Shown here one piece after another: positions 1-7,290 of a stretch of 64,000 bases of DNA. This DNA is from Escherichia phage SSBS18_WS_10_728, in sequence record MT322327.1. One strand, 5' to 3'. Below the pieces are notes generated by a model. That model ran no database searches, was not told where the DNA came from, and saw only the letters and a list, made by a program, of their open reading frames with translations. Made by a program: the position numbers and the translations under genes. Numbering within the stretch: the stretch's first letter is position 1; each line of letters begins with the position of its first letter.

Positions 1-227
1 CTCATTATGTTTTCTCCAAATAATTAGTCATGTTTCTCCTTAAAAAAGACGGTACAGAGACCGTCAAGGAGAAACCACAATGTACGTCAGAGACATACTG
101 TATAAGGCTTCTTATAAAGTATAACTCTGTAAAAAAGCCCTGTCTAAAAATACTCTTCGGTAGCGAAAGGAAGAATACTTATAGCAGGGCATTATTATTA
201 TTTTAATTGAGAGAGAGTAAAATAACT

Positions 228-303
228 TGGAGAATCCGAAGGGACTCGAACCCTTATAAACCTGTTTTGCAGACAGGCACATAGCCATTTCTGTCACGGA
301 TTC
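228..303 (-). tRNA. tRNA-Cys (anticodon GCA)
   Basis: Manual fold: acceptor GAATCCG/CGGATTC, T-arm GGGTTCGAGTCCC, anticodon loop CUGCAAA, encoded CCA. Confidence 0.6.
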
Positions 304-307
304 AAAT

Positions 308-400
308 TGGAGGAAGATACCAGACTTGAACTGGTACACCGATTTCTCAGCTACTGGCAGTTTAGCAAACTGCTCCCTTACCTTTTAGGGTTAATCTTCC
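308..400 (-). tRNA. tRNA-Ser (anticodon GCU), class II with long variable arm
   Basis: Acceptor GGAAGAT/ATCTTCC, anticodon stem GCAGT/ACTGC with loop UUGCUAA, T-arm ACCAGTTCAAGTCTGGT, CCA encoded; 93 nt. Confidence 0.55.
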
Positions 401-401
401 A

Positions 402-1136
402 TTATTTCTGTAATGCGTTCTTCATTTCTGGTGTTGCAATAGTGTCAATCACACCAGTTTTACAAGCATCATCAAACCAGTCTGGTAAGATACCTGCTAA
501 GAACCCATTGATATTCGTTTTAAGGTACTCTGCAATAAGGGCAGCTTCTTCTTCAATCATCTGAACAACTTCATCTGCATAAGCTGTAATCTTTGAAATA
601 CCTTCATTAATCTTATTAACAGCTTGGTTAGCTAAATCAGAAATAGTATCAAGACCTTTATCAATAGCATCCTGTAAGTCACTTAATACATCATTAACAC
701 CATCTAGTGTACTGTTAATCATATCCATAGCTTTTTGACCATACTCTGTAGCAACACCCATAATACCACTAAACGGTGTACAGCCAACTTGTTCCCCTGC
801 TGCACCCATAACATTAGAATAGCCTTTTGCTACCTGCATACGTGATGAAAACTCATCAATGGACTTTTGACCATAATCCGTCAGTGTTTTAGTGGTTGAT
901 GTAGTGCTTGTCAGACTCGTTGTAAAGCTGTTAAGCAGAACTGTTGTAAGTCCAGCAGCAACAAGTTTATCCTTTATTGTAGGGTCTGTTACAGAGCTAA
1001 TAGAGCTTACAAGTGATGTAGAGGCAGCTACGGTTCCACCTAGAACTGCTGCACCAGTAATAAGGGGATTAGAAAACCCTCTACCGGTTTTTAAGAGATT
1101 AAAAATCTCCTTACCTTGTTCTGTCATCTCTTTCAT
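402..1136 (-). CDS. hypothetical protein (Thr/Ser-rich)
   Basis: ORF 402..1199; start moved to internal ATG at 1136 (AAAGG RBS) because the 5' end overlaps tRNA-Phe. Confidence 0.45.
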   Translation of the reverse strand: MKEMTEQGKEIFNLLKTGRGFSNPLITGAAVLGGTVAASTSLVSSISSVTDPTIKDKLVAAGLTTVLLNSFTTSLTSTTSTTKTLTDYGQKSIDEFSSRMQVAKGYSNVMGAAGEQVGCTPFSGIMGVATEYGQKAMDMINSTLDGVNDVLSDLQDAIDKGLDTISDLANQAVNKINEGISKITAYADEVVQMIEEEAALIAEYLKTNINGFLAGILPDWFDDACKTGVIDTIATPEMKNALQK

Positions 1137-1152
1137 TAAGCACCTTTGAAAT

Positions 1153-1228
1153 TGGTAGTCCAGTGGGATTTGAACCCTCTTCTCATGTTTTTCAGACACG
1201 CGCTTTAACCATATAAGCTACTTGGACT
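1153..1228 (-). tRNA. tRNA-Phe (anticodon GAA)
   Basis: Acceptor stem 6/7 bp, T-arm GGGTTCAAATCCC, anticodon loop CUGAAAA, CCA encoded. Confidence 0.6.
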
Positions 1229-1234
1229 ATAAAT

Positions 1235-1310
1235 TGGGGTGACCTACGGGATTTGAACCCGTATAGACCATGTTCACAGCATGGGTCATTACCGTTTATG
1301 ATAAGGCCAC
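1235..1310 (-). tRNA. tRNA-His (anticodon GUG)
   Basis: Acceptor GTGGCCT/AGGTCAC, T-arm ACGGGTTCAAATCCCGT, anticodon loop CUGUGAA. Confidence 0.55.
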
Positions 1311-1341
1311 ATTTAAGGACTCTCGTAAGAACCCTTAGAAG

Positions 1342-1417
1342 TGGCAGCGGCATAAGGATTTGAACCTTAATAAGACAGCTTCAGAGACTGCTGCATTGCC
1401 AGTTATGCTATACCGCT
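1342..1417 (-). tRNA. tRNA-Gln (anticodon CUG), tentative
   Basis: D-stem GCAT/ATGC, anticodon stem GCAGT/GCTGT with loop CUCUGAA, T-arm TAAGGTTCAAATCCTTA, CCA encoded. Confidence 0.5.
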
Positions 1418-1422
1418 AAATT

Positions 1423-1501
1423 TGGTACTCCATATCGGATTCGAACCGATACATAACACAGATTTTAAGTCTGGCCTCTCTGCCAATTGGAGTAATGGAG
1501 C
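1423..1501 (-). tRNA. tRNA with Leu-type anticodon UAA but short variable arm (isotype uncertain)
   Basis: T-arm ATCGGTTCGAATCCGAT, CCA encoded, D-loop AATTGGCAGAG shared with tRNA at 2246..2323; anticodon loop CUUAAAA. Confidence 0.4.
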
Positions 1502-1503
1502 AT

Positions 1504-1578
1504 TGGCGGGGGATGTTGGAATTGAACCAACTTCTTCGATTTCAAAGACCGAGGTTTTAACCTTGTAAACTAATCCCC
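1504..1578 (-). tRNA. tRNA-Gln (anticodon UUG), tentative
   Basis: T-arm GTTGGTTCAATTCCAAC, anticodon stem TCGGT/ATCGA with loop CUUUGAA, CCA encoded. Confidence 0.5.
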
Positions 1579-1587
1579 TTTAAATCT

Positions 1588-2145
1588 TTACTTTCTCAGT
1601 GGATGAATAAAGAATGCCAACATAACTCTTTCCCTTGAGAATGCTCTTTCTTCTGGGACAACACTTTTAAGTTTCCAACCAACATAAATTCTCCAGTAGA
1701 ATTGTTTACCAAAGACTTTAATTGATGGGATAAAAGCGAATAACCCCCAAGCATTGCTGTTCCACATTAGGAGATAACCTGTCTGATTATCTTCAGGGTC
1801 AGAGCTTACGTTGATATTACCTTTCCACTTAGTAACATCTTTTACATCTCTTCCTAACACATGGTAAGAGAAGTTATAAGCTTTGTTTCTCCAGAGCCAT
1901 CCAACTCTCTGCAAATAGACACCCAGCTTACCAATCTTTCTAATCTTAGCCCATCTTTTAATGTGACCTTCATCACCATCAATAGGGTTGTCATATGTCT
2001 CCATCCATCTGAATCCAAAAGGTAGATGTCCTTTCTTCTCACTATAGAATGGAACTACAAAAGGTGCTAAGATAACTGCTAAGATTGCTGCCAATGGGTC
2101 TAGCAAAGCTAGGAAAATCCATGAAGCATACTTCAAATATCTCAT
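1588..2145 (-). CDS. hypothetical membrane-anchored protein inside the tRNA cluster
   Basis: 185-aa ORF, hydrophobic N-terminus, AAGAGG RBS 8 nt upstream of ATG. Confidence 0.55.
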   Translation of the reverse strand: MRYLKYASWIFLALLDPLAAILAVILAPFVVPFYSEKKGHLPFGFRWMETYDNPIDGDEGHIKRWAKIRKIGKLGVYLQRVGWLWRNKAYNFSYHVLGRDVKDVTKWKGNINVSSDPEDNQTGYLLMWNSNAWGLFAFIPSIKVFGKQFYWRIYVGWKLKSVVPEERAFSRERVMLAFFIHPLRK

Positions 2146-2164
2146 TTAAATAGCCTCTTTAAAT

Positions 2165-2240
2165 TGGCGCAGGATAAGGGATTCGAACCCCTATTAACAG
2201 CTTCGTAGACTGTTGCTCTATCCATTTGAACTAATCCTGC
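2165..2240 (-). tRNA. tRNA-Arg (anticodon ACG)
   Basis: Acceptor GCAGGAT/ATCCTGC perfect, anticodon stem ACAGT/GCTGT with loop CUACGAA, T-arm GGGGTTCGAATCCCTT. Confidence 0.55.
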
Positions 2241-2245
2241 AAAAT

Positions 2246-2323
2246 TGGTGTTCCAAGACGGATTCGAACCGTCACTAGTACAAGGTTTGAGCTTGCATCC
2301 TCTGCCAATTGGGATACTGGAAC
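2246..2323 (-). tRNA. tRNA with Leu-type anticodon CAA but short variable arm (isotype uncertain)
   Basis: T-arm GACGGTTCGAATCCGTC, anticodon stem GCAAG/CTTGT with loop CUCAAAC, CCA encoded. Confidence 0.4.
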
Positions 2324-2324
2324 A

Positions 2325-2399
2325 TGGTACTCACTAAAGGACTTGAACCTTTTTCTTCATCTTGTAATGGTGATGTTTTACCATATAAACTAAGCGAGT
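2325..2399 (-). tRNA. tRNA-Val (anticodon UAC), tentative
   Basis: D-stem GTTT/AAAC, T-arm AAAGGTTCAAGTCCTTT, anticodon loop AUUACAA. Confidence 0.4.
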
Positions 2400-2494
2400 G
2401 TGGAAGAGGTCTGAAGTTGTGCCGCTAACTCAACTCCGTGGAATTTGTTACGGTCTTCAGTTGACACCAGCGGTCTTTCACTTGACCTCTGAAT

Positions 2495-2571
2495 TGGTGC
2501 TGCTCACAGGACTCGAACCTGCATTTCCATCCTTACAAGGGATGTGTAATAGCCAATTATACGAAAGCAGC
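2495..2571 (-). tRNA. tRNA-Thr (anticodon UGU)
   Basis: Anticodon stem CATCC/GGATG perfect with loop CUUGUAA, T-arm GCAGGTTCGAGTCCTGT, CCA encoded. Confidence 0.6.
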
Positions 2572-2577
2572 ATTGTT

Positions 2578-2652
2578 TGGAGCATCCAGAGGGAATCGAA
2601 CCCTCAACCTCAGTTTGGAAGACTGTAATTTTCCCGTTTAAACTATGGATGC
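2578..2652 (-). tRNA. tRNA-Gly (anticodon UCC)
   Basis: Acceptor GCATCCA/TGGATGC perfect, T-arm GAGGGTTCGATTCCCTC, anticodon loop CUUCCAA. Confidence 0.55.
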
Positions 2653-2658
2653 ACTAAT

Positions 2659-2734
2659 TGGTGGAGTCACTGAGAATTGAACTCAGTTCCCAAGTTTGCA
2701 AAACTCGAATTTTAACCATATAAACTATGACCCC
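2659..2734 (-). tRNA. tRNA-Ala (anticodon UGC)
   Basis: Acceptor GGGGTCA with G3:U70 pair, T-arm CTGAGTTCAATTCTCAG, anticodon loop UUUGCAA. Confidence 0.6.
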
Positions 2735-2740
2735 AATGTT

Positions 2741-2816
2741 TGGTACAGGTGGAGGGAATTGAACCCATCGTCTTACTGATTAAGAGTCAGCCGCATAACC
2801 ATTTTGCTACACCTGC
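2741..2816 (-). tRNA. tRNA-Lys (anticodon CUU), tentative
   Basis: Acceptor GCAGGTG/CACCTGT, anticodon stem GCTGA/TCAGT with loop CUCUUAA, weak T-stem; paralog of tRNA at 4057..4132. Confidence 0.45.
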
Positions 2817-2823
2817 ATTAATT

Positions 2824-2901
2824 TGGTAGGAGACAAGGGATTCGAACCCTCAAACACCAACTTCTAAGGATGGTAGGTTTACCAATTACCGTCAATCTCC
2901 C
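2824..2901 (-). tRNA. tRNA with Leu-type anticodon UAG but short variable arm (isotype uncertain)
   Basis: T-arm GAGGGTTCGAATCCCTT, CCA encoded, anticodon loop CUUAGAA with 4/5-bp stem. Confidence 0.4.
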
Positions 2902-3156
2902 ATTAAATCTTTTTAGAGAACTTCTAAGAACCTAAGCAACAAGGTTCCACAACAAGCTGTAATAACCTTAGAAGCCCTCTAAAAAGACCTAAATAGGTCT
3001 TTACATAGTCTTGTTTAATCCGGTGACTAGAACCTTTGGAGAGCTTGATATTATCTCTTCTCCGTGACACCTACTAGGTGCTTTACTGTGCGTGTACGAC
3101 AATACACGAGGGATAAACCGAAAATGCGAGCAAGCATGACGGTGTAAATCTTATTA

Positions 3157-3246
3157 GGCGGTAAGTAAAGGAGTCGAACCCTCACCGTATCTCTACAGTG
3201 GCAACAGTTTTCAAGACTGTTTGGCTGCCATTAGCCGCTACCTACC
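3157..3246 (-). tRNA. tRNA-Ser (anticodon UGA), class II
   Basis: Acceptor GGTAGGT/ACTTACC, anticodon stem ACAGT/ACTGT perfect with loop CUUGAAA, long variable arm, T-loop TTCGACT; 3' CC encoded. Confidence 0.6.
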
Positions 3247-3259
3247 CCTAATAAGACTT

Positions 3260-3342
3260 TGGCATGGGACGGAGGAGTTGAACCCCTTTGAAACGGTTTT
3301 GGAGGCCGTTGCTCATGCCTTAGAGTCTTAACATCGTCCCAC
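3260..3342 (-). tRNA. tRNA, possibly Trp (anticodon CCA); atypical length
   Basis: Acceptor GTGGGAC/GTCCCAT, T-arm AGGGGTTCAACTCCTCC, CCA encoded, hairpin with loop CUCCAAA; D region ~7 nt too long in my fold. Confidence 0.35.
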
Positions 3343-3484
3343 ACTATAATTCGAAGCTTACCGTATTTTCGCAACACTGTAAAGCCCCTTCTCAGATTAT
3401 TTACATGTTCTGGAAAACATGAGATACAGACCACCTCCTTACACGGAGACCCGATAAGGTCGTCTAAGCAATCTGCTAACTATT

Positions 3485-3561
3485 TGGCACACCCTACAGG
3501 ATTCGAACCTGTAACTCAATGATTAGAAGTCATTTGCTCTGTCCAGTTGAACTAAGGGTGC
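3485..3561 (-). tRNA. tRNA-Arg (anticodon UCU)
   Basis: Anticodon stem AATGA/TCATT perfect with loop CUUCUAA, T-arm ACAGGTTCGAATCCTGT, CCA encoded. Confidence 0.6.
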
Positions 3562-3854
3562 ATTAATCTTTAAAGACTCTCTTAGAAAGCCCTTAAAGAT
3601 GCCCACTTTATTAATCATACCGTGGGCTAGTACGCCAAATTCTTTGATGAGGGATTGGAAGACCTCACTGGTGTTTAGCCTATCAAGCTACTGCCAGAAA
3701 AACATTGTCGTTTGCATTTATTTTAAATTTGCAAAATAGACGCTACGCAACGAAAACTATTCAGAATATGTACAACAAATTTCCCCACATTGTGTTACGT
3801 CTAACGCTCATGTATTGGTGTTTGAATTATACATATTATGAATCATTTTTAGTT

Positions 3855-3883
3855 ACTATAAAGCGGTCACATCTCAATGTCAA
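3855..3883 (-). promoter_or_regulatory. sigma70-like promoter reading leftward into tRNA genes
   Basis: Minus strand: -35 TTGACA, 17-bp spacer, -10 TATAGT. Confidence 0.5.
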
Positions 3884-3898
3884 CAACTTTATTGAAAT

Positions 3899-3974
3899 TG
3901 GTACTGGTAGGTGGAATCGAACCACCGATATTCCCTTATCAGGGGAGTGTTATAACCTTCTTAACTATACCAGC
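3899..3974 (-). tRNA. tRNA-Ile (anticodon GAU)
   Basis: Acceptor GCTGGTA/TACCAGT, T-arm GGTGGTTCGATTCCACC, anticodon loop CUGAUAA. Confidence 0.55.
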
Positions 3975-3975
3975 T

Positions 3976-4052
3976 TGGAGGTTCAGATGGGAATCGAACC
4001 CACATTCATAGGGCTTATGAAACCCCTGCATTACCTTATCTGCGACTGAACC
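3976..4052 (-). tRNA. tRNA-Met (anticodon CAU; elongator or Ile2-type)
   Basis: Acceptor GGTTCAG/CTGAACC perfect, anticodon stem GGGGT/GCCCT with loop UUCAUAA, T-arm GTGGGTTCGATTCCCAT. Confidence 0.55.
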
Positions 4053-4056
4053 ATAT

Positions 4057-4132
4057 TGGTAGAAGTGGAGGGATTCGAACCCATCGCCTGTCAGATTAAA
4101 AGTCTGCCGCATCACCATTCTGCTACACTTCC
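4057..4132 (-). tRNA. tRNA-Lys (anticodon UUU)
   Basis: Acceptor GGAAGTG/CACTTCT, anticodon stem GCAGA/TCTGA with loop CUUUUAA, CCA encoded. Confidence 0.5.
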
Positions 4133-4333
4133 ATTAAATTATCTTTGTAGATAAGCTACCCAGACTTGCTTAAGGTCTGTAGCGATGTGCCTTGTTGGGT
4201 TTAAATCTAGAATTTACCCTTTCACCCTTTGTGGTCGCATACTCACAGGTAAGCTTAATAGCTCACCTACAAAGATAATTACCAGACCGTTGTTTATCAT
4301 CTTAAGTGCTACCATTACACCAACTCGACATCT

Positions 4334-4357
4334 GCCGAGTGAAGGAATCGAACCTTC
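4334..4357 (-). other. orphan tRNA T-arm-like element (possible tRNA remnant)
   Basis: Perfect T-arm GAAGGTTCGATTCCTTC on minus strand but no matching 5' acceptor strand or CCA nearby. Confidence 0.3.
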
Positions 4358-4393
4358 GCCTTTTCTTTACCGGAGAAATAGATTGTTTAAGTT

Positions 4394-4413
4394 TTGCTGT
4401 AAACGGTCTTCTG
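4394..4413. repeat. tRNA-cluster repeat copy A (TTGCTG-N5-GGTCTTCTG)
   Basis: One of four 20-nt copies; CCAGACC partner at 4281 and 4424. Confidence 0.6.
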
Positions 4414-4483
4414 TAAATTTGTTGAGCCAGACCAAGTTTTAAATTTTTTCAAAATTAAATTGGCTTGAAAATATCATACGTGC

Positions 4484-4503
4484 TTGCTGAATTTGGTCTT
4501 CTG
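4484..4503. repeat. tRNA-cluster repeat copy B
   Basis: TTGCTGAATTTGGTCTTCTG; CCAGACC partner at 4424. Confidence 0.6.
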
Positions 4504-4591
4504 CTCCTTTAAAGAACACTCGTAAGAACCCTTTAAGGGAGGGGCTAAAATAGCCCTCTCAAAACATCATCTTGAAATACTTATTATAATT

Positions 4592-4669
4592 TGGCGGTTA
4601 CGAAGGGATTTGAACCCTCATCATCTCCCGTGACAGGGGAGTATTTTAACCAGATTAAACTACATAACC
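4592..4669 (-). tRNA. tRNA-Asp (anticodon GUC)
   Basis: Anticodon stem CTCCC/GGGAG perfect with loop CUGUCAC, T-arm GAGGGTTCAAATCCCTT, CCA encoded. Confidence 0.65.
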
Positions 4670-4675
4670 TTTATT

Positions 4676-4763
4676 TGGTGTGCCGTGTAGGAGTCGAACC
4701 TACCGAGTCTCAATGACAAGGGATTTACAGTCCCCACCGCTACCATCTACGGGATAACGACAC
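4676..4763 (-). tRNA. tRNA-Tyr (anticodon GUA), class II
   Basis: Acceptor GTGTCGT/ACGGCAC, anticodon loop CUGUAAA, long variable arm, T-arm GTAGGTTCGACTCCTAC, CCA encoded; 88 nt. Confidence 0.6.
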
Positions 4764-4772
4764 ATTTAAATT

Positions 4773-4849
4773 TGGCGGTTAGTCAGGGATTCGAACCCTG
4801 TGCCATTCGCTTAACAGGCGACCGCACATACCTTATGTGCTTCCTAACC
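4773..4849 (-). tRNA. tRNA-Asn (anticodon GUU)
   Basis: D-stem GCAC/GTGC, anticodon loop CUGUUAA, T-arm CAGGGTTCGAATCCCTG, CCA encoded. Confidence 0.6.
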
Positions 4850-4900
4850 TTAATACATTGCCAGACCGTGTTTTTTCTTTTATCCGCAAAAAGTATTTTG

Positions 4901-4920
4901 TTGCTGAATACGGTCTTCTG
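4901..4920. repeat. tRNA-cluster repeat copy C
   Basis: TTGCTGAATACGGTCTTCTG, 6 nt from 3' end of tRNA-Met; CCAGACC partner at 4861. Confidence 0.6.
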
Positions 4921-4926
4921 CAAAAT

Positions 4927-5003
4927 TGGAGGCGGGTGCAGGAGTCGAACCTGCCGATACCATGCTAATGAGACATGTGAGACGCCCTTTCTCTATACCC
5001 GCA
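4927..5003 (-). tRNA. tRNA-Met (anticodon CAU), possible initiator
   Basis: Anticodon stem CATGT/GCATG with loop CUCAUUA, T-arm GCAGGTTCGACTCCTGC, unpaired 1:72 position, CCA encoded. Confidence 0.5.
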
Positions 5004-5067
5004 ATTCTTAATGACCAGACCAAATCTCTTCTTTGTCCGATTTACCTTCAGATGAATAAGATTAAGT

Positions 5068-5087
5068 TTGCTGTAATTGGTCTTCTG
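5068..5087. repeat. tRNA-cluster repeat copy D
   Basis: TTGCTGTAATTGGTCTTCTG, 7 nt from 3' end of tRNA-Glu; CCAGACC partner at 5015. Confidence 0.6.
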
Positions 5088-5094
5088 TCAAAAC

Positions 5095-5172
5095 TGGCGT
5101 TCCAGAAGGGATTTGAACCCTCAAATATCCACTTTGAAAGAGTGGTGACTTTACCATTTTGTCCACTGGAAC
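5095..5172 (-). tRNA. tRNA-Glu (anticodon UUC)
   Basis: Anticodon stem CCACT/AGTGG perfect with loop CUUUCAA, T-arm GAGGGTTCAAATCCCTT, CCA encoded. Confidence 0.6.
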
Positions 5173-5179
5173 ATTAATT

Positions 5180-5256
5180 TGGTCTCTGTTGGAGGACTTG
5201 AACCTCCGGCCTTACCGCCCCAAACGGAACGCTCTACCAAGCTGAGCTAAACAGAG
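5180..5256 (-). tRNA. tRNA-Pro (anticodon UGG)
   Basis: Acceptor CTCTGTT/AACAGAG perfect, anticodon loop UUUGGGG, T-arm GGAGGTTCAAGTCCTCC, CCA encoded. Confidence 0.6.
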
Positions 5257-5374
5257 ATAAACTTTTCAAACTCTATGTAACCACTTTAACATTATTTTTT
5301 AGTGGTTGTCAAGAACTTTTTTAAAATATTTTTCAGTATCTTAGAAAAGCTCTCATTTCGTTTCTATGTAGAAC

Positions 5375-5403
5375 ATATTAAAGGGTATCAAACACATTGT
5401 CAA
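5375..5403 (-). promoter_or_regulatory. sigma70-like promoter for the tRNA cluster, with palindromic spacer
   Basis: Minus strand: -35 TTGACA, 17-bp spacer, -10 TAATAT; spacer is part of hairpin AAGGGTAT...ATACCCTT. Confidence 0.5.
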
Positions 5404-5421: not shown

Positions 5422-6837
5422 TTACCAGATGTAACGGTCAATCATTACTGCTTTGAGCATTACGCTGGTTGGGTCAAACTTCTCACCACCAAGCAGAGCT
5501 TTTAAAGTGGCTGGAGAGAACCCTGATACCATTGCTACACCGTTATCCTTAACAGATACTTCGCAAGTACCATTACGGTTTGCTAAGTACCAGAATACCA
5601 GTTGTGGCATTTCGTATCCAGCTTTTTTGTACTTACTACGAATTGCTTCAAAGTTTGTACGACCATTTGCACCATCAACCTGATTAAACTCCATATCAGA
5701 GAAGATGATAAGCTTACTTGGCATATCTTTCTGAGTCAAGTTGTTTCTCTTACCTGTCTCAAGAATACGGTCAAAAGCTGCTTGTAAATTAGTTGAACCA
5801 TACTCAACATGACGCATCACCTGACGATGACGGTTTCGTAAATCACCACTCAGTTCGATGAAGTGAGGGTTTGTTGAGTAAACCATTAACTCATTCTTAA
5901 AGCAACCAGTATTGCGTTCTGCTACATACAAGGCAAGTGATACACCAATATCAAGTGCAGTGATTGAACCAAGATTCACCCAAGACATTGAGCTTGAAAC
6001 ATCAGTCATACACAAGATGTTCTCACCTTCTGCCATCCAGTTTGGTAGTGCTTTCCACTGCTCATTGGCAACATCTGCATTACCATGTTTGATAGACTTA
6101 ATCACATCGTATGGGTAAACAGCACCAGCGTTAATCTTAGCCTCACCCTTTGAGAGTGACTCGATGTAAGCTTTGTAACGTTCTCCATCTTTACGGTTAA
6201 AGAGTTTTTGGTAACGTGCAGCAGCAAGAGAAGGAATCTTACTGTAGTCGATTTTACCAAACTCATTAGCAGAGATTTTTTGCTCAACTGTATCAGAAAG
6301 TGCAGACAACAGTGTGCGGTACTCTTTCTCACTCAAGTTAGCAAACTTGCAGAAACGTTTTACAAACTGTTTGTGGCGTGGTTTTACTCGTGGTAACCAC
6401 TTGGCTGCTAAACCTGCTGTTTCAGGGTCTAGTAATGCTGCTTCTAAGTGCTTAAAGGCATCTGTCTCAAAACGAGTACCTACGAAGATTTTGAAGTCAT
6501 CAAAACGACCAAGCTCTGCAATCTTATCCATAATGCGAAGAACCTGTGTAGGCTCTAAAACTTTATCTTCAATTGCTTGAAGTAAAACAGTTCTGAAGGC
6601 TTTACGCTCACCCATACCTTCTCGTACATCTCGCATGTGAAGCAAAATACGAACTGCAACATCAACATCCTCACGCAAAGCTTTGTAGAACAAATCTGGT
6701 AAGATTTCTACATTACTACGGCTGGAACCAGCAGCTTTGTAAAAGTCCACAAGAGCAGACATTGATGAAGTATGGTTTACAGCACCATTTTCAGTTCGAC
6801 CTGCATGAAGGTGCGCATGTTTAAATAATTCGCTCAT
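5422..6837 (-). CDS. vWA-domain protein (MIDAS motif DxSxS), possibly DUF2828-like
   Basis: 471-aa ORF; motif MTDVSSSMS; GAGAG RBS upstream. Confidence 0.55.
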   Translation of the reverse strand: MSELFKHAHLHAGRTENGAVNHTSSMSALVDFYKAAGSSRSNVEILPDLFYKALREDVDVAVRILLHMRDVREGMGERKAFRTVLLQAIEDKVLEPTQVLRIMDKIAELGRFDDFKIFVGTRFETDAFKHLEAALLDPETAGLAAKWLPRVKPRHKQFVKRFCKFANLSEKEYRTLLSALSDTVEQKISANEFGKIDYSKIPSLAAARYQKLFNRKDGERYKAYIESLSKGEAKINAGAVYPYDVIKSIKHGNADVANEQWKALPNWMAEGENILCMTDVSSSMSWVNLGSITALDIGVSLALYVAERNTGCFKNELMVYSTNPHFIELSGDLRNRHRQVMRHVEYGSTNLQAAFDRILETGKRNNLTQKDMPSKLIIFSDMEFNQVDGANGRTNFEAIRSKYKKAGYEMPQLVFWYLANRNGTCEVSVKDNGVAMVSGFSPATLKALLGGEKFDPTSVMLKAVMIDRYIW

Positions 6838-6918: not shown

Positions 6919-7290
6919 TTATTTTTTGAGAGTCGCTACAGCAGAGAACGTTGGTTTGTTATCTGTCTGAGGTTGACCAGCACTATCAGGGGTCTTCTTA
7001 GTGTCTGCTGCAAGTGCTTTCATCTCACCTGCTGAGTGAGTAAAGATGGTCTTACCGACCTCAATCATACTCTTGATGTTTACGTCATCTGTGTTTAACC
7101 CGAACTCTGCAAGCTTAGCAGCATCCCTTGTAACAATCGCCTCAAACAGCTTTGCAGCAAACTCAGCAGAATTATCAATGGTCAGTTGAGCTTTTACAAG
7201 TGAACTTTTGTTACGAGAGCCTTTTGGTCTTCCAGATGGGTTTCCAGATTGGCCTTTTTTAAACTGGCCTTTGTTTGTTCTGTTTTTCAT
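6919..7290 (-). CDS. hypothetical protein with basic Gly/Pro-rich N-terminus
   Basis: 123-aa ORF, AAGAGG RBS. Confidence 0.5.
   Translation of the reverse strand: MKNRTNKGQFKKGQSGNPSGRPKGSRNKSSLVKAQLTIDNSAEFAAKLFEAIVTRDAAKLAEFGLNTDDVNIKSMIEVGKTIFTHSAGEMKALAADTKKTPDSAGQPQTDNKPTFSAVATLKK

What the first reader, a model, noticed from the sequence alone, without database searches (positions are those of the whole stretch)
4281..5087. Repeated hairpin elements embedded between tRNA genes
Four copies of TTGCTG-N5-GGTCTTCTG (4394, 4484, 4901, 5068) each have a CCAGACC partner 45-120 nt away, able to pair AGACC with GGTCT and enclose a loop. Two copies lie 6-7 nt from tRNA 3' ends. They could be processing or termination signals for the tRNA precursor, or small tRNA-linked RNAs.
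Basis: seen in the sequence. Interest (0 to 1): 0.5.

Follow-up and report, generated by a model that had tools for sequence, protein, structure and literature searches.

The report
Phage Y-RNA-like genes among tRNAs
The four repeated hairpins between the tRNA genes of this Felix O1-like phage are most likely small non-coding "Y RNAs", one of them a tRNA mimic, that partner with a Ro60-like ring protein encoded just upstream, which gives a concrete RNA candidate for a phage anti-defence protein whose RNA partners were only guessed at.

Summary
Four exact copies of the 20-nt motif, each with its CCAGACC partner, lie only in 4279-5090. They must be read on the minus strand, the strand of the 26 tRNA genes.

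Each element reads: 4-bp outer stem, AGA bulge, 7-bp stem beginning AGACC, 3 nt, unpaired CAGCAA, variable interior, 3' strand ending GGUCU, G bulge, outer stem. Both stems covary strongly (97.7% of cells paired; 8 of 11 pairs change on both sides).

Element D (4416-4279) has the V / T-arm / capped acceptor-like stem / D-arm order that defines YrlA, the bacterial tRNA-mimic Y RNA.

The same stem / bulge / stem / CAGCAA signature recurs next to homologous genes in distant phages. One case is mycobacteriophage LeBron, where the middle of three tandem copies is the locus's Rfam YrlA hit.

Verdict: these are unannotated Y-RNA-like genes, one YrlA-type and three minimal, and a divergent variant of a known kind. 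RNA accumulation and protein binding remain untested. They are not terminators, and there is no evidence that they are processing signals.

The parts
5012..5090 (-). Element A: minimal Y-RNA-like hairpin, 79 nt with the outer stem. UGAC / AGA / AGACCAA / UUA / CAGCAA ... UUGGUCU / G / GUCA. The interior holds a 5-bp hairpin with a 7-nt loop (UCUGA-AGGUAAA-UCGGA). It lies between tRNA-Glu and tRNA-Met.
   Evidence: conserved at the same position in Felixounavirus, Mooglevirus, Suspvirus and L127
4858..4923 (-). Element B: minimal Y-RNA-like hairpin, 66 nt. UUGC / AGA / AGACCGU / AUU / CAGCAA ... ACGGUCU / G / GCAA. It lies between tRNA-Met and tRNA-Asn.
   Evidence: The outer stem covaries among relatives (UUGC/GCAA to UUAC/GUAA), and Sf14 has AGGCC paired with GGUCU through a G-U pair.
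4424..4506 (-). Element C: minimal Y-RNA-like hairpin, 83 nt. GAGC / AGA / AGACCAA / AUU / CAGCAA ... UUGGUCU / G / GCUC.
   Evidence: GAGC/GCUC, GAGC/GUUC and GGGC/GUCC in relatives
4279..4416 (-). Element D: YrlA-type Y RNA (tRNA mimic), 138 nt. Sub-parts, on the minus strand: closing helix 5' strand 4416-4400; CAGCAA 4399-4394; third stem CUUA 4391-4388 with UAAG 4304-4301; V arm 4378-4362; T arm GAAGG-UUCGAUU-CCUUC 4357-4341; capped acceptor-like stem ACUCGGC-AGAU-GUCGAGU 4340-4323; D arm GUGUAAUGGUAGCAC 4320-4306; closing helix 3' strand 4291-4279.
   Evidence: compensatory replacement of the capped stem in Sf14/CHB7/mistaenkt; YrlA arm order; ARAGORN calls the circularly re-ordered sequence a tRNA, the native one not; best nhmmer hit in the window, E 5.6e-5, for a profile built from distant phage YrlA-like RNAs
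5422..6837 (-). Gene for a 471-aa Ro60-like protein (divergent TROVE ring plus vWA domain with a DxSxS motif, D279-S281-S283). It is the presumed protein partner and is 99% identical to Bas63 gp130.
5283..5403 (-). Two sigma-70-like promoter matches (5403->5375 TTGACA-17-TAATAT; 5312->5283 TTGACA-18-TAAAGT) between the Ro60-like gene and the first tRNA. They are the likely start of the tRNA/Y-RNA precursor transcript.
   Evidence: consensus matches only; function inferred
4133..4281 (-). Adjacent 149-nt structured RNA 'E': a 24-bp closing stem and a terminal hairpin CAGAC-CUUAAGCAA-GUCUG. Its relation to A-D is unresolved, so it is listed as a neighbour and possible fifth member.
   Evidence: z -6.07; 31 predicted pairs, 11 with compensatory changes

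Best explanation
Elements A-D are genes for four small non-coding RNAs of the Y-RNA class. D is a YrlA-type tRNA mimic. A-C are minimal versions that keep only the protein-binding module and a small hairpin.

Proposed steps, all inferred except where marked:
1. The RNAs are transcribed with the phage tRNA array from promoters just downstream of the Ro60-like gene.
2. The tRNA-processing machinery releases them. RNase P cutting at the next tRNA would leave about an 8-nt 3' tail. 3' trimming of the preceding tRNA would leave about a 4-nt 5' leader. RNase E-type cuts in the AU-rich linkers would separate C, D and E.
3. The conserved module (4-bp stem, purine bulge, 7-bp stem, then unpaired CAGCAA) is the docking site for the phage Ro60-like ring protein.
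4. By analogy with Deinococcus and Salmonella Rsr-Y RNA-PNPase and with Thermus phage phiLo Ro60-Yrl, the RNAs would gate the ring's cavity, tether it to a host exonuclease or another effector, or both. This would steer decay or surveillance of structured RNAs (tRNA, pre-tRNA, rRNA) during infection, possibly as part of the protein's anti-defence activity.

Shown here: the sequence and structure conservation, the covariation, the tRNA-like anatomy of D, the Ro60 fold of the neighbouring protein, and the co-occurrence of the RNA signature with this protein family across distant phages.
For: 1. Structure under selection. On 16 distinct closing modules, 97.7% of cells pair and 8 of 11 pairs change on both sides. 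The covariation score is 0.646 against 0.244 for shuffles (0 of 500 reach it) and at most 0.19 for slid registers. The G-U pairs fit only the tRNA-sense strand.

2. D has the YrlA order 5' motif, V, T, AS, D described by Chen et al. 2014 (PMC4201824), with a YUAY (CUAU) before V. The capped acceptor-like stem is replaced by an unrelated complementary pair in other genera. ARAGORN accepts the re-ordered sequence as a tRNA.

4. The same stem / bulge / stem / NNN / CAGCAA signature occurs:
- in Yersinia phage P778, with compensatory AGACC/GGUCU to GGACU/AGUCC;
- in many IMG/VR phages whose protein is 39-48% identical: 74 descriptor hits on the gene strand against 23 on the opposite strand and 9-13 in reversed controls;
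- three times in tandem right after the LeBron Ro-like gene.

5. Link to YrlA. Rfam YrlA (RF02553) hits the LeBron middle copy (39.8 bits, E 7e-6) and CAGCAA elements in L139, L154 and L146. A profile of those distant RNAs finds D as the best hit in the window.

6. Negative control: the T5 tRNA region, which has no Ro-like gene, gives 0 hits on the tRNA strand.

7. Literature. Bas63 gp130 was noted as Ro60-like, with the guess that 'some tRNA genes are possibly Y RNAs'. A Listeria phage homologue lies beside highly abundant ncRNAs.
Against: - There are no expression, end-mapping or binding data for these RNAs.
- Rfam YrlA gives no hit in the window even at E<=10. The canonical Ro-binding motifs (GGUCCGA; GNCGAAN0-1G) are absent; only a loose resemblance exists (CAGAAG against NCGAAG).
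- A-C (66-83 nt) are shorter than the 80-130 nt quoted for characterised Y RNAs.
- Pfam TROVE does not match the protein, so the Ro60 assignment rests on a predicted structure and on homology to proteins annotated 'Ro-like'.
- gp130 expressed alone rescues T7 on a Ppl host, so the phage RNAs are not required for that activity.
- The distant descriptor hits were selected for pairing, so they cannot count as independent covariation.
- L127 lacks element D.
Confidence: 0.75

Rival explanations
1. The elements are processing or termination signals for the polycistronic tRNA precursor. The hairpins would guide RNase III, E or P cleavage or stop transcription, and would have no life as separate RNAs.
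For: Two elements start 6-7 nt after a tRNA 3' end and end 8-11 nt before the next tRNA. They have no promoter of their own, so they must be cut from the precursor.
Against: No U tract follows any stem. The helices (4+7 bp with a bulge) are too short for E. coli RNase III (established knowledge). Only 4 of about 25 junctions carry one. The invariant features are unpaired (AGA, CAGCAA). D contains a full tRNA-like domain with its own covariation. In L139 and LeBron the same modules lie beside the Ro-like gene, away from tRNAs.
Confidence: 0.08
2. The elements are real structured RNAs, but the Ro60-like protein is not their ligand. They would act on their own or with another factor, for example as tRNA-mimic decoys for host anticodon nucleases or tRNA-modifying enzymes, or as regulators of the tRNA operon.
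For: Co-occurrence with the Ro-like gene is correlative. The canonical Ro-binding motifs are missing. gp130 works without phage RNAs in T7. Phage tRNA arrays are thought to counter tRNA-targeting defences (text).
Against: A-C lack any tRNA-like part yet keep the same closing module. That module follows the Ro-like gene in phages with no tRNA cluster in the fetched locus (LeBron, several IMG/VR loci). YrlA RNAs of this architecture are bound by Rsr in the three bacteria tested.
Confidence: 0.12
3. The elements are DNA-level repeats: recombination or insertion sites (integron attC-like hairpins, MITE-like terminal inverted repeats, or homing-endonuclease targets) that shuffle tRNA gene cassettes.
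For: The elements have conserved ends with variable interiors of 60-138 bp. HNH endonuclease genes and indels occur in these clusters.
Against: There are no target-site duplications; the flanks are inverse complements, not direct repeats. G-U pairs (AGGCC/GGUCU, GAGC/GUUC) are tolerated only on the tRNA-sense strand and would be A-C mismatches in the complementary strand or a cruciform. The four elements are syntenic and fixed across three genera. The interiors carry conserved RNA arms.
Confidence: 0.03
4. D is a decayed remnant of two neighbouring tRNA genes (the 3' half of one and the 5' half of the next), or a circularly permuted tRNA gene that must be circularised to function. A-C would be further decay products.
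For: The order T arm, then acceptor 3' strand, then acceptor 5' strand, then D arm is what a tRNA-tRNA junction gives. The profile search also picks up such junctions at lower scores.
Against: The two acceptor halves are complementary and joined by a 4-nt loop. They are replaced by a different complementary pair with a UACG-type loop in other genera. The same architecture exists in unrelated phages. The anticodon-arm position holds only the conserved closing module, with no anticodon loop, and no splicing endonuclease system is known in these hosts (established knowledge).
Confidence: 0.02

Closest known systems
YrlA (Rfam RF02553), the tRNA-mimic Y RNA of Salmonella, Mycobacterium and mycobacteriophages (Chen et al. 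2014, PMC4201824)
   Same: Encoded within 2 kb of a Ro60-type gene. Three nested helices formed by the 5' and 3' ends with an asymmetric internal loop. The V, T, capped acceptor-like and D arms come in that order, with a YUAY before V. T-loop UUCGAUU and a D loop with GG. More than one Y RNA per genome, only one of which has the tRNA-like domain.
   Different: The window gives no RF02553 hit. The 5' motif is C-AGA-AGACC...CAGCAA instead of GNCGAAN0-1G. The partner protein belongs to the DUF2828 branch, which Pfam TROVE does not recognise. The RNAs are embedded in a tRNA operon rather than in an rsr-rtcBA operon, and there are four copies.
Mycobacteriophage LeBron locus (gp53 'RNA-binding protein' plus a YrlA hit)
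   Same: The protein is homologous (31.5% identity, E 4e-61). Three tandem RNAs follow it, each with outer stem / bulge / 7-bp stem / 3 nt / CAGCAA, and the middle one has T, AS and D arms.
   Different: The bulge is U-rich (UUG, CUG, UUUG) rather than AGA, and the stem sequence differs. The RNAs follow the gene directly and end at an intrinsic terminator. There is no tRNA array in the fetched locus.
Yrl1/Yrl2 of Thermus phage phiLo with phiRo60 (PMC12135203)
   Same: A phage-encoded Ro60 with two adjacent Y-RNA-like stem-bulge-stem RNAs. Binding was shown in vitro, and the complex forms with host PNPase.
   Different: phiRo60 is a canonical TROVE protein and its RNAs carry a CGAA motif. No tRNA-like domain or tRNA-array context is reported in the passages read.
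Bas63 (JohannRWettstein) gp130 (bioRxiv 10.1101/2024.10.10.617714)
   Different: That work proposed that some annotated tRNA genes might be Y RNAs. The candidates found here are unannotated elements between the tRNAs. No RNA was identified or tested there.
Stable RNAs 'species 1 and 2' (rnaC/rnaD) in the phage T4 tRNA cluster (from my own knowledge, not checked here)
   Same: Small stable RNAs of unknown function that are co-transcribed and co-processed with phage tRNAs.
   Different: No sequence or motif relation was tested, and T4 has no Ro-like gene as far as I know.

Membership tests
Y RNA (general) | Encoded close to (in bacteria within about 2 kb of) a Ro60/Rsr gene | tested here: met
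   A-D lie 330-1140 nt downstream of the Ro60-like CDS 5422-6837, on the same strand
Y RNA (general) | Long stem formed by the 5' and 3' ends, containing a bulged helix that is the Ro-binding site | tested here: met
   4-bp + 7-bp helices separated by AGA/G bulges; 97.7% of cells paired; 8 of 11 pairs with double changes
Y RNA (general) | Conserved Ro-binding sequence (GGUCCGA in animals; GNCGAAN0-1G or CGAA in bacteria and phiLo) | tested here: not met
   The 5' strand is NNNC-AGA-AGACC followed by CAGCAA. Only a CAGAAG / NCGAAG resemblance exists.
Y RNA (general) | Physically bound to Ro60, with accumulation dependent on Ro60 | not testable with these tools
   Needs immunoprecipitation, gel shift and Northern blots in infected cells
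Y RNA (general) | Size about 80-130 nt | tested here: inconclusive
   D is 138 nt and C is 83 nt; A (79 nt) and B (66 nt) are shorter. The true ends are unknown.
YrlA (RF02553) | V, T, acceptor-like (capped) and D stem-loops in that order between the closing strands, with tRNA-like T and D loops | tested here: met
   Met for D only. A-C lack the T, AS and D arms.
YrlA (RF02553) | Match to the Rfam covariance model at its gathering score (69 bits) | tested here: not met
   No hit in 4120-4600 at E<=10. Sibling elements with the same CAGCAA module in LeBron, L139, L154 and L146 score 25-40 bits, also below the gathering score.
YrlA (RF02553) | tRNA-type modifications (pseudouridine 55, dihydrouridine); RNase P cleavage when the acceptor-like stem has 7 bp | not testable with these tools
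   D has a 7-bp capped stem, so RNase P cleavage is a testable prediction (for the precedent)
Ro60 / TROVE protein (partner gene) | HEAT-repeat ring (TROVE) followed by a vWA domain with a MIDAS motif | tested here: met
Ro60 / TROVE protein (partner gene) | Sequence match to Pfam TROVE (PF05731) or to solved Ro60 chains | tested here: not met
   Pfam gives only DUF2828 + DUF7788. The profile search against PDB sequences finds nothing relevant.

The most novel reading that the evidence does not exclude
The stem / purine-bulge / stem / CAGCAA module is the recognition code of a separate, phage-specific branch of Ro60 proteins (DUF2828), found from mycobacteriophages to coliphages and vibriophages. 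Felix O1-like phages would make a family of four such RNAs out of their own tRNA precursor. The resulting RNP, whose protein already counters the Ppl defence, would be a tRNA- and RNA-surveillance or anti-defence machine. The minimal A-C RNAs would show that a Y RNA needs no tRNA-like or large-loop domain, and the neighbouring 149-nt RNA E may be a fifth partner.
Probability: 0.35. Interest if true: 0.75.

Novelty: new variant of a known kind. Interest (0 to 1): 0.6.

Why it matters
Ro60-Y RNA particles are conserved from bacteria to humans, yet their function is understood in very few systems, and E. coli K-12 has none of its own.

These elements would give an E. coli phage from the BASEL collection (Bas63 and its relatives) a defined set of four candidate Y RNAs. 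They sit beside a Ro60-like protein that already has a genetic phenotype, countering the Ppl defence. The question 'what do Y RNAs do for Ro60?' then becomes testable with simple phage genetics.

The finding has three further consequences:
- It corrects the published guess that annotated tRNA genes are the Y RNAs.
- It shows that current models (Rfam YrlA, Pfam TROVE) miss a large phage branch of both partners. The tblastn search found 692 phage records with a homologue of the protein.
- It explains unannotated 'spacers', sometimes annotated as hypothetical ORFs, in the tRNA clusters of hundreds of sequenced phages.

Tried and rejected
1. A circularly permuted tRNA gene that needs circularisation. 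I favoured this at first because of the T arm / acceptor / D arm order. I dropped it when the acceptor-like stem proved to be capped, compensatorily replaced in other genera, and identical in layout to YrlA.
2. Hairpin-ribozyme loop A (AGAA). The opposite strand and the second domain do not fit, and Rfam gives no ribozyme hit.
3. A sigma-70 or MotA-type promoter on the plus strand (TTGCTG as a -35 element). The spacing to any -10-like hexamer is 14 nt, and the scan found nothing there.
4. Intrinsic terminators. None lies at the elements.
5. A Rfam family. There are no meaningful hits for A-E; the Dicty Class I hit at E 0.49 is chance.
6. A custom covariance model from distant members. I abandoned this because MAFFT misaligned the 3' strands and the variable arms. 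I used a descriptor scan with controls and an nhmmer profile instead.
7. DUF5681 (6919-7290) as a third component. It is syntenic only in close relatives, 2 of 81 loci.
8. 'tRNA-OTHER' in one GenBank record as an annotation of D. It is tRNA-Tyr.
9. Two literature look-ups by PMC id failed because the papers are not held, and one broad search was uninformative.
Full report
**What the window is.** The window is a Felix O1-like myovirus (Felixounavirus): 3800-5400 is 99% identical to Escherichia phage CL1, and 300 phage records match. ARAGORN finds 26 tRNA genes in 228-5256, all on the minus strand. The finding therefore has to be read on the minus strand.

**Checking the observation.** The 20-nt motif occurs exactly four times, only in 4394-5087. 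Each copy has a CCAGACC upstream on the plus strand. Read in the tRNA sense, each element is 5'-NNN-C-AGA-AGACC-NN-NNN-CAGCAA...NN-GGUCU-G-G-N'N'N'-3'.

There is a 7-8 bp inner stem (AGACC plus two or three variable, complementary bases). There is also a 4-bp outer stem whose three outer pairs come from non-conserved flanks: UGA/UCA, UUG/CAA, GAG/CUC and UUA/UAA. An AGA bulge on the 5' strand and a single G on the 3' strand separate the two stems.

In IMG/VR, the 5' motif occurs by chance in about 108 unrelated contigs, and none of those copies has the 3' partner. All 31 copies in Felixounavirus-like contigs have it.

**Conservation and covariation.**
- All four elements sit at the same positions in Felixounavirus, Mooglevirus (Sf14) and Suspvirus (CHB7, mistaenkt).
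- A more distant relative, L127, has three of them and lacks D. Its protein is 63% identical to the window's.
- I collected sixteen distinct closing modules. Thirteen were found by sequence motif alone, and three were found by eye in Yersinia phage P778.
- Across these, 97.7% of cells pair and 8 of 11 pairs change on both sides.
- The covariation score is 0.646. Shuffles give 0.244, with 0 of 500 reaching the observed value. Slid registers give at most 0.19.
- P778 turns AGACC/GGUCU into GGACU/AGUCC and AGA/G into ACA/A, and keeps CAGCAA three bases after the stem.
- G-U pairs (AGGCC/GGUCU, GAGC/GUUC) are tolerated. In the complementary strand they would be A-C mismatches. This points to an RNA in the tRNA sense, not a DNA repeat.

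**The interior of D.** Element D (4416-4279) contains, in order:
- CAGCAA
- a 4-bp stem (CUUA/UAAG)
- CUAU
- a 5-bp hairpin with a 7-nt loop
- a T arm, GAAGG-UUCGAUU-CCUUC
- a 7-bp stem capped by AGAU, ACUCGGC/GUCGAGU
- a D arm, GUGUAAUGGUAGCAC

I first read this as a circularly permuted tRNA gene. In Sf14, CHB7 and mistaenkt, however, the capped stem is replaced by an unrelated complementary pair (ACACG...CGUGU) around a UACG-type loop. The selected feature is therefore a closed hairpin, not tRNA ends.

This order (5' motif, V, T, capped acceptor-like stem, D) is the definition of YrlA, the tRNA-mimicking bacterial Y RNA, down to the YUAY that precedes V (Chen et al. 2014, PMC4201824). ARAGORN calls the sequence a tRNA once it is re-ordered through the cap and closed with a synthetic anticodon arm. 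It does not call the native sequence.

**The neighbouring gene.** A 471-aa ORF lies at 5422-6837 on the same strand, ending 330 nt upstream of A.
- Pfam gives only DUF2828 and DUF7788.
- PHROGs calls the family 'RNA-binding protein'.
- PDB sequences give nothing relevant.
- An AlphaFold2 model built from 30 homologues has pLDDT 83.9 and pTM 0.85.
- Its 11 best Foldseek PDB matches are all Ro60, Rsr or TROVE entries, with alignments of 517-552 columns.
- The DxSxS motif of the vWA domain is invariant.

tblastn finds the family in 692 phage records. Among them are mycobacteriophage proteins annotated 'Ro-like RNA binding protein', with E values from 1e-61 to 1e-79. The window's protein is 99% identical to Bas63 gp130.

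**The link between the RNA signature and the protein family.**
- In P778, L127, Vibrio phage phi-pp2 and a 149-kb metagenomic phage, the gene borders a large tRNA cluster.
- I scanned 75 IMG/VR loci whose protein is 39-48% identical to the window's. The descriptor was: outer stem, 2-4-nt bulge, 7-bp stem, 2-4 nt, CAGCAA.
- It gave 74 hits on the gene strand. The opposite strand gave 23, and reversed-sequence controls gave 9-13.
- The clean hits share a consensus, NNNN-A(A)A-AG(G/A)AYNN-(U)UA-CAGCAA...G(U)-NNNN.
- The longer hits contain textbook T, capped-stem and D arms.
- Rfam's YrlA model scores several of them at E values from 4e-5 to 0.5.
- In mycobacteriophage LeBron, three tandem copies of the module follow the Ro-like gene and end at a terminator.
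- The middle LeBron copy is the locus's YrlA hit (39.8 bits).
- An nhmmer profile built from seven such distant RNAs finds D as the best hit in the whole window, E 5.6e-5.
- The tRNA region of T5, which has no Ro-like gene, gives no hit on its tRNA strand.

**Interpretation.** The most economical reading is that A-D are Y-RNA-like genes. D is a YrlA-type tRNA mimic. A-C are minimal forms that keep the closing module plus a small V-like hairpin. This parallels the 'one tRNA-like plus one or more simpler Y RNAs' pattern reported for Salmonella, Mycobacterium and Deinococcus.

The elements have no promoters of their own. Two sigma-70-like sites lie between the Ro-like gene and tRNA-Pro, so the RNAs should be cut from the tRNA precursor.

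The conserved unpaired bases (the purine bulge and CAGCAA) are the natural candidates for protein contacts. What the particle does is inferred from Rsr-Y RNA-PNPase and from phiLo Ro60-Yrl-PNPase. Candidate roles are gating or tethering an exonuclease, tRNA or rRNA surveillance, or anti-defence.

**Caveats.**
- There are no expression or binding data.
- The window gives no Rfam YrlA hit, even at E<=10.
- The canonical Ro-binding sequences are absent.
- Pfam TROVE does not match the protein.
- gp130 does not need phage RNAs to rescue T7 on Ppl.
- The distant descriptor hits were selected for pairing.
- I could not build a proper covariance model, because the automatic alignments were poor.

**Rivals.**
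- Terminators are excluded because no U tracts follow the stems.
- A pure processing-signal role is unlikely. The elements are few, they carry conserved unpaired bases and a tRNA-like domain, and they occur away from tRNAs in other phages.
- DNA-level repeats are contradicted by strand-specific G-U pairs, fixed synteny and the lack of target duplications.
- The tRNA-relic and permuted-tRNA ideas are contradicted by the covarying capped stem.
- The serious residual alternative is that the RNAs are real but work without the Ro-like protein.

**Novelty.** Y RNAs, YrlA and phage Ro60 homologues are all known, and gp130's Ro60 fold has been published. Three things appear to be new in the literature I could search:
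- the identification of the actual RNA candidates in Felix O1-like phages
- their CAGCAA and purine-bulge signature, shared with mycobacteriophage YrlA loci
- their embedding, four at a time, in a tRNA operon

I rate this a new variant of a known kind.

Noticed in passing
window 4133-4281 (-): A 149-nt RNA 'E' lies directly after element D. It has a 24-bp closing stem (MFE -50.2 kcal/mol, z -6.07) and 11 compensatory pairs across 7 relatives. Its covarying terminal hairpin CAGAC-CUUAAGCAA-GUCUG resembles a collapsed copy of the A-D motif. There is no Rfam hit. Yersinia phage P778 has a similar hairpin before its tRNA-Lys(UUU).
   Followed up: partly
window 4504-4591 (-): Two or three conserved hairpins lie between tRNA-Asp and element C (z -3.16). 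The GGGCUAUUUUAGCCC hairpin covaries in L127. Their function is unknown, and they are not terminator-like.
   Followed up: partly
window 3247-3340 (-): A cloverleaf-like sequence with acceptor GUGGGAC/GUCCCAU, a CUCCAAA loop (anticodon CCA, Trp?) and an odd D region. ARAGORN does not call it, and Rfam gives only a weak tRNA-Sec hit (23 bits). It may be an unannotated atypical tRNA.
   Followed up: partly
window 4927-5003 (-): The 'tRNA-Met(CAU)' called by ARAGORN and annotated in relatives gets no Rfam tRNA hit at E<=1. It has a U1-C72 mismatch, U at position 37 and an unusual D arm. It is flanked by elements A and B.
   Followed up: partly
window 2400-2494 (-): A 95-nt structured spacer (z -3.17) contains CUGAAGACCGUAAC, a near-copy of the 5' motif, but has no CAGCAA and no GGUCUGG partner.
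   Followed up: no
window 1-227, 2902-3156, 3562-3898 (-): Other gaps in the tRNA cluster fold far better than shuffles (z -7.1, -4.6 and -5.65). The 3562-3751 stretch gives weak tmRNA-like Rfam hits (E 0.002, 16 bits). More unannotated RNAs are likely.
   Followed up: no
L122 about 2575-2645; L126 13901-13982; L127 9971-10050: Relatives carry another small RNA with an invariant core, CUGCGCGGCUGGAAACACCCACUCAA, inside a covarying closing stem, near tRNA-Lys and tRNA-Met. It is absent from this window.
   Followed up: partly
L211 (Listeria phage LMTA-34) 2428-2979, 3959-5479, 6808-8019: A ROOL RNA (88.5 bits, below the 99.1-bit gathering score) and an RtcB-type 'tRNA splicing ligase' flank the Ro-like gene and tRNA cluster. 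This echoes the bacterial rsr-yrlA-rtcB arrangement. The published 'highly abundant ncRNAs' of the related phage CKA15 may include ROOL.
   Followed up: no
L154 8605-9054: A phage-encoded tmRNA (75 bits) lies in the tRNA cluster of a metagenomic phage that also has three CAGCAA-type Y-like RNAs.
   Followed up: no
L126 12970-13660 and 14141-14517: Yersinia phage P778 has orphan T-arm sequences and a likely intron-containing tRNA (GGTCTGT...GCAGACC acceptor halves about 120 nt apart) in its tRNA cluster.
   Followed up: no
L125 (Bas63) 2204-2356 and 2368-2478: The annotated hypothetical CDSs bas63_0137 and bas63_0138 lie antisense over elements C/D and RNA E. Length differences that are not multiples of three and compensatory RNA changes among relatives suggest these ORFs are spurious.
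   Followed up: partly
window 6919-7290 (-): A DUF5681 gene lies immediately upstream of the Ro60-like gene. This arrangement is conserved only in close relatives (L126, L127), 2 of 81 loci carrying the Ro-like gene.
   Followed up: yes
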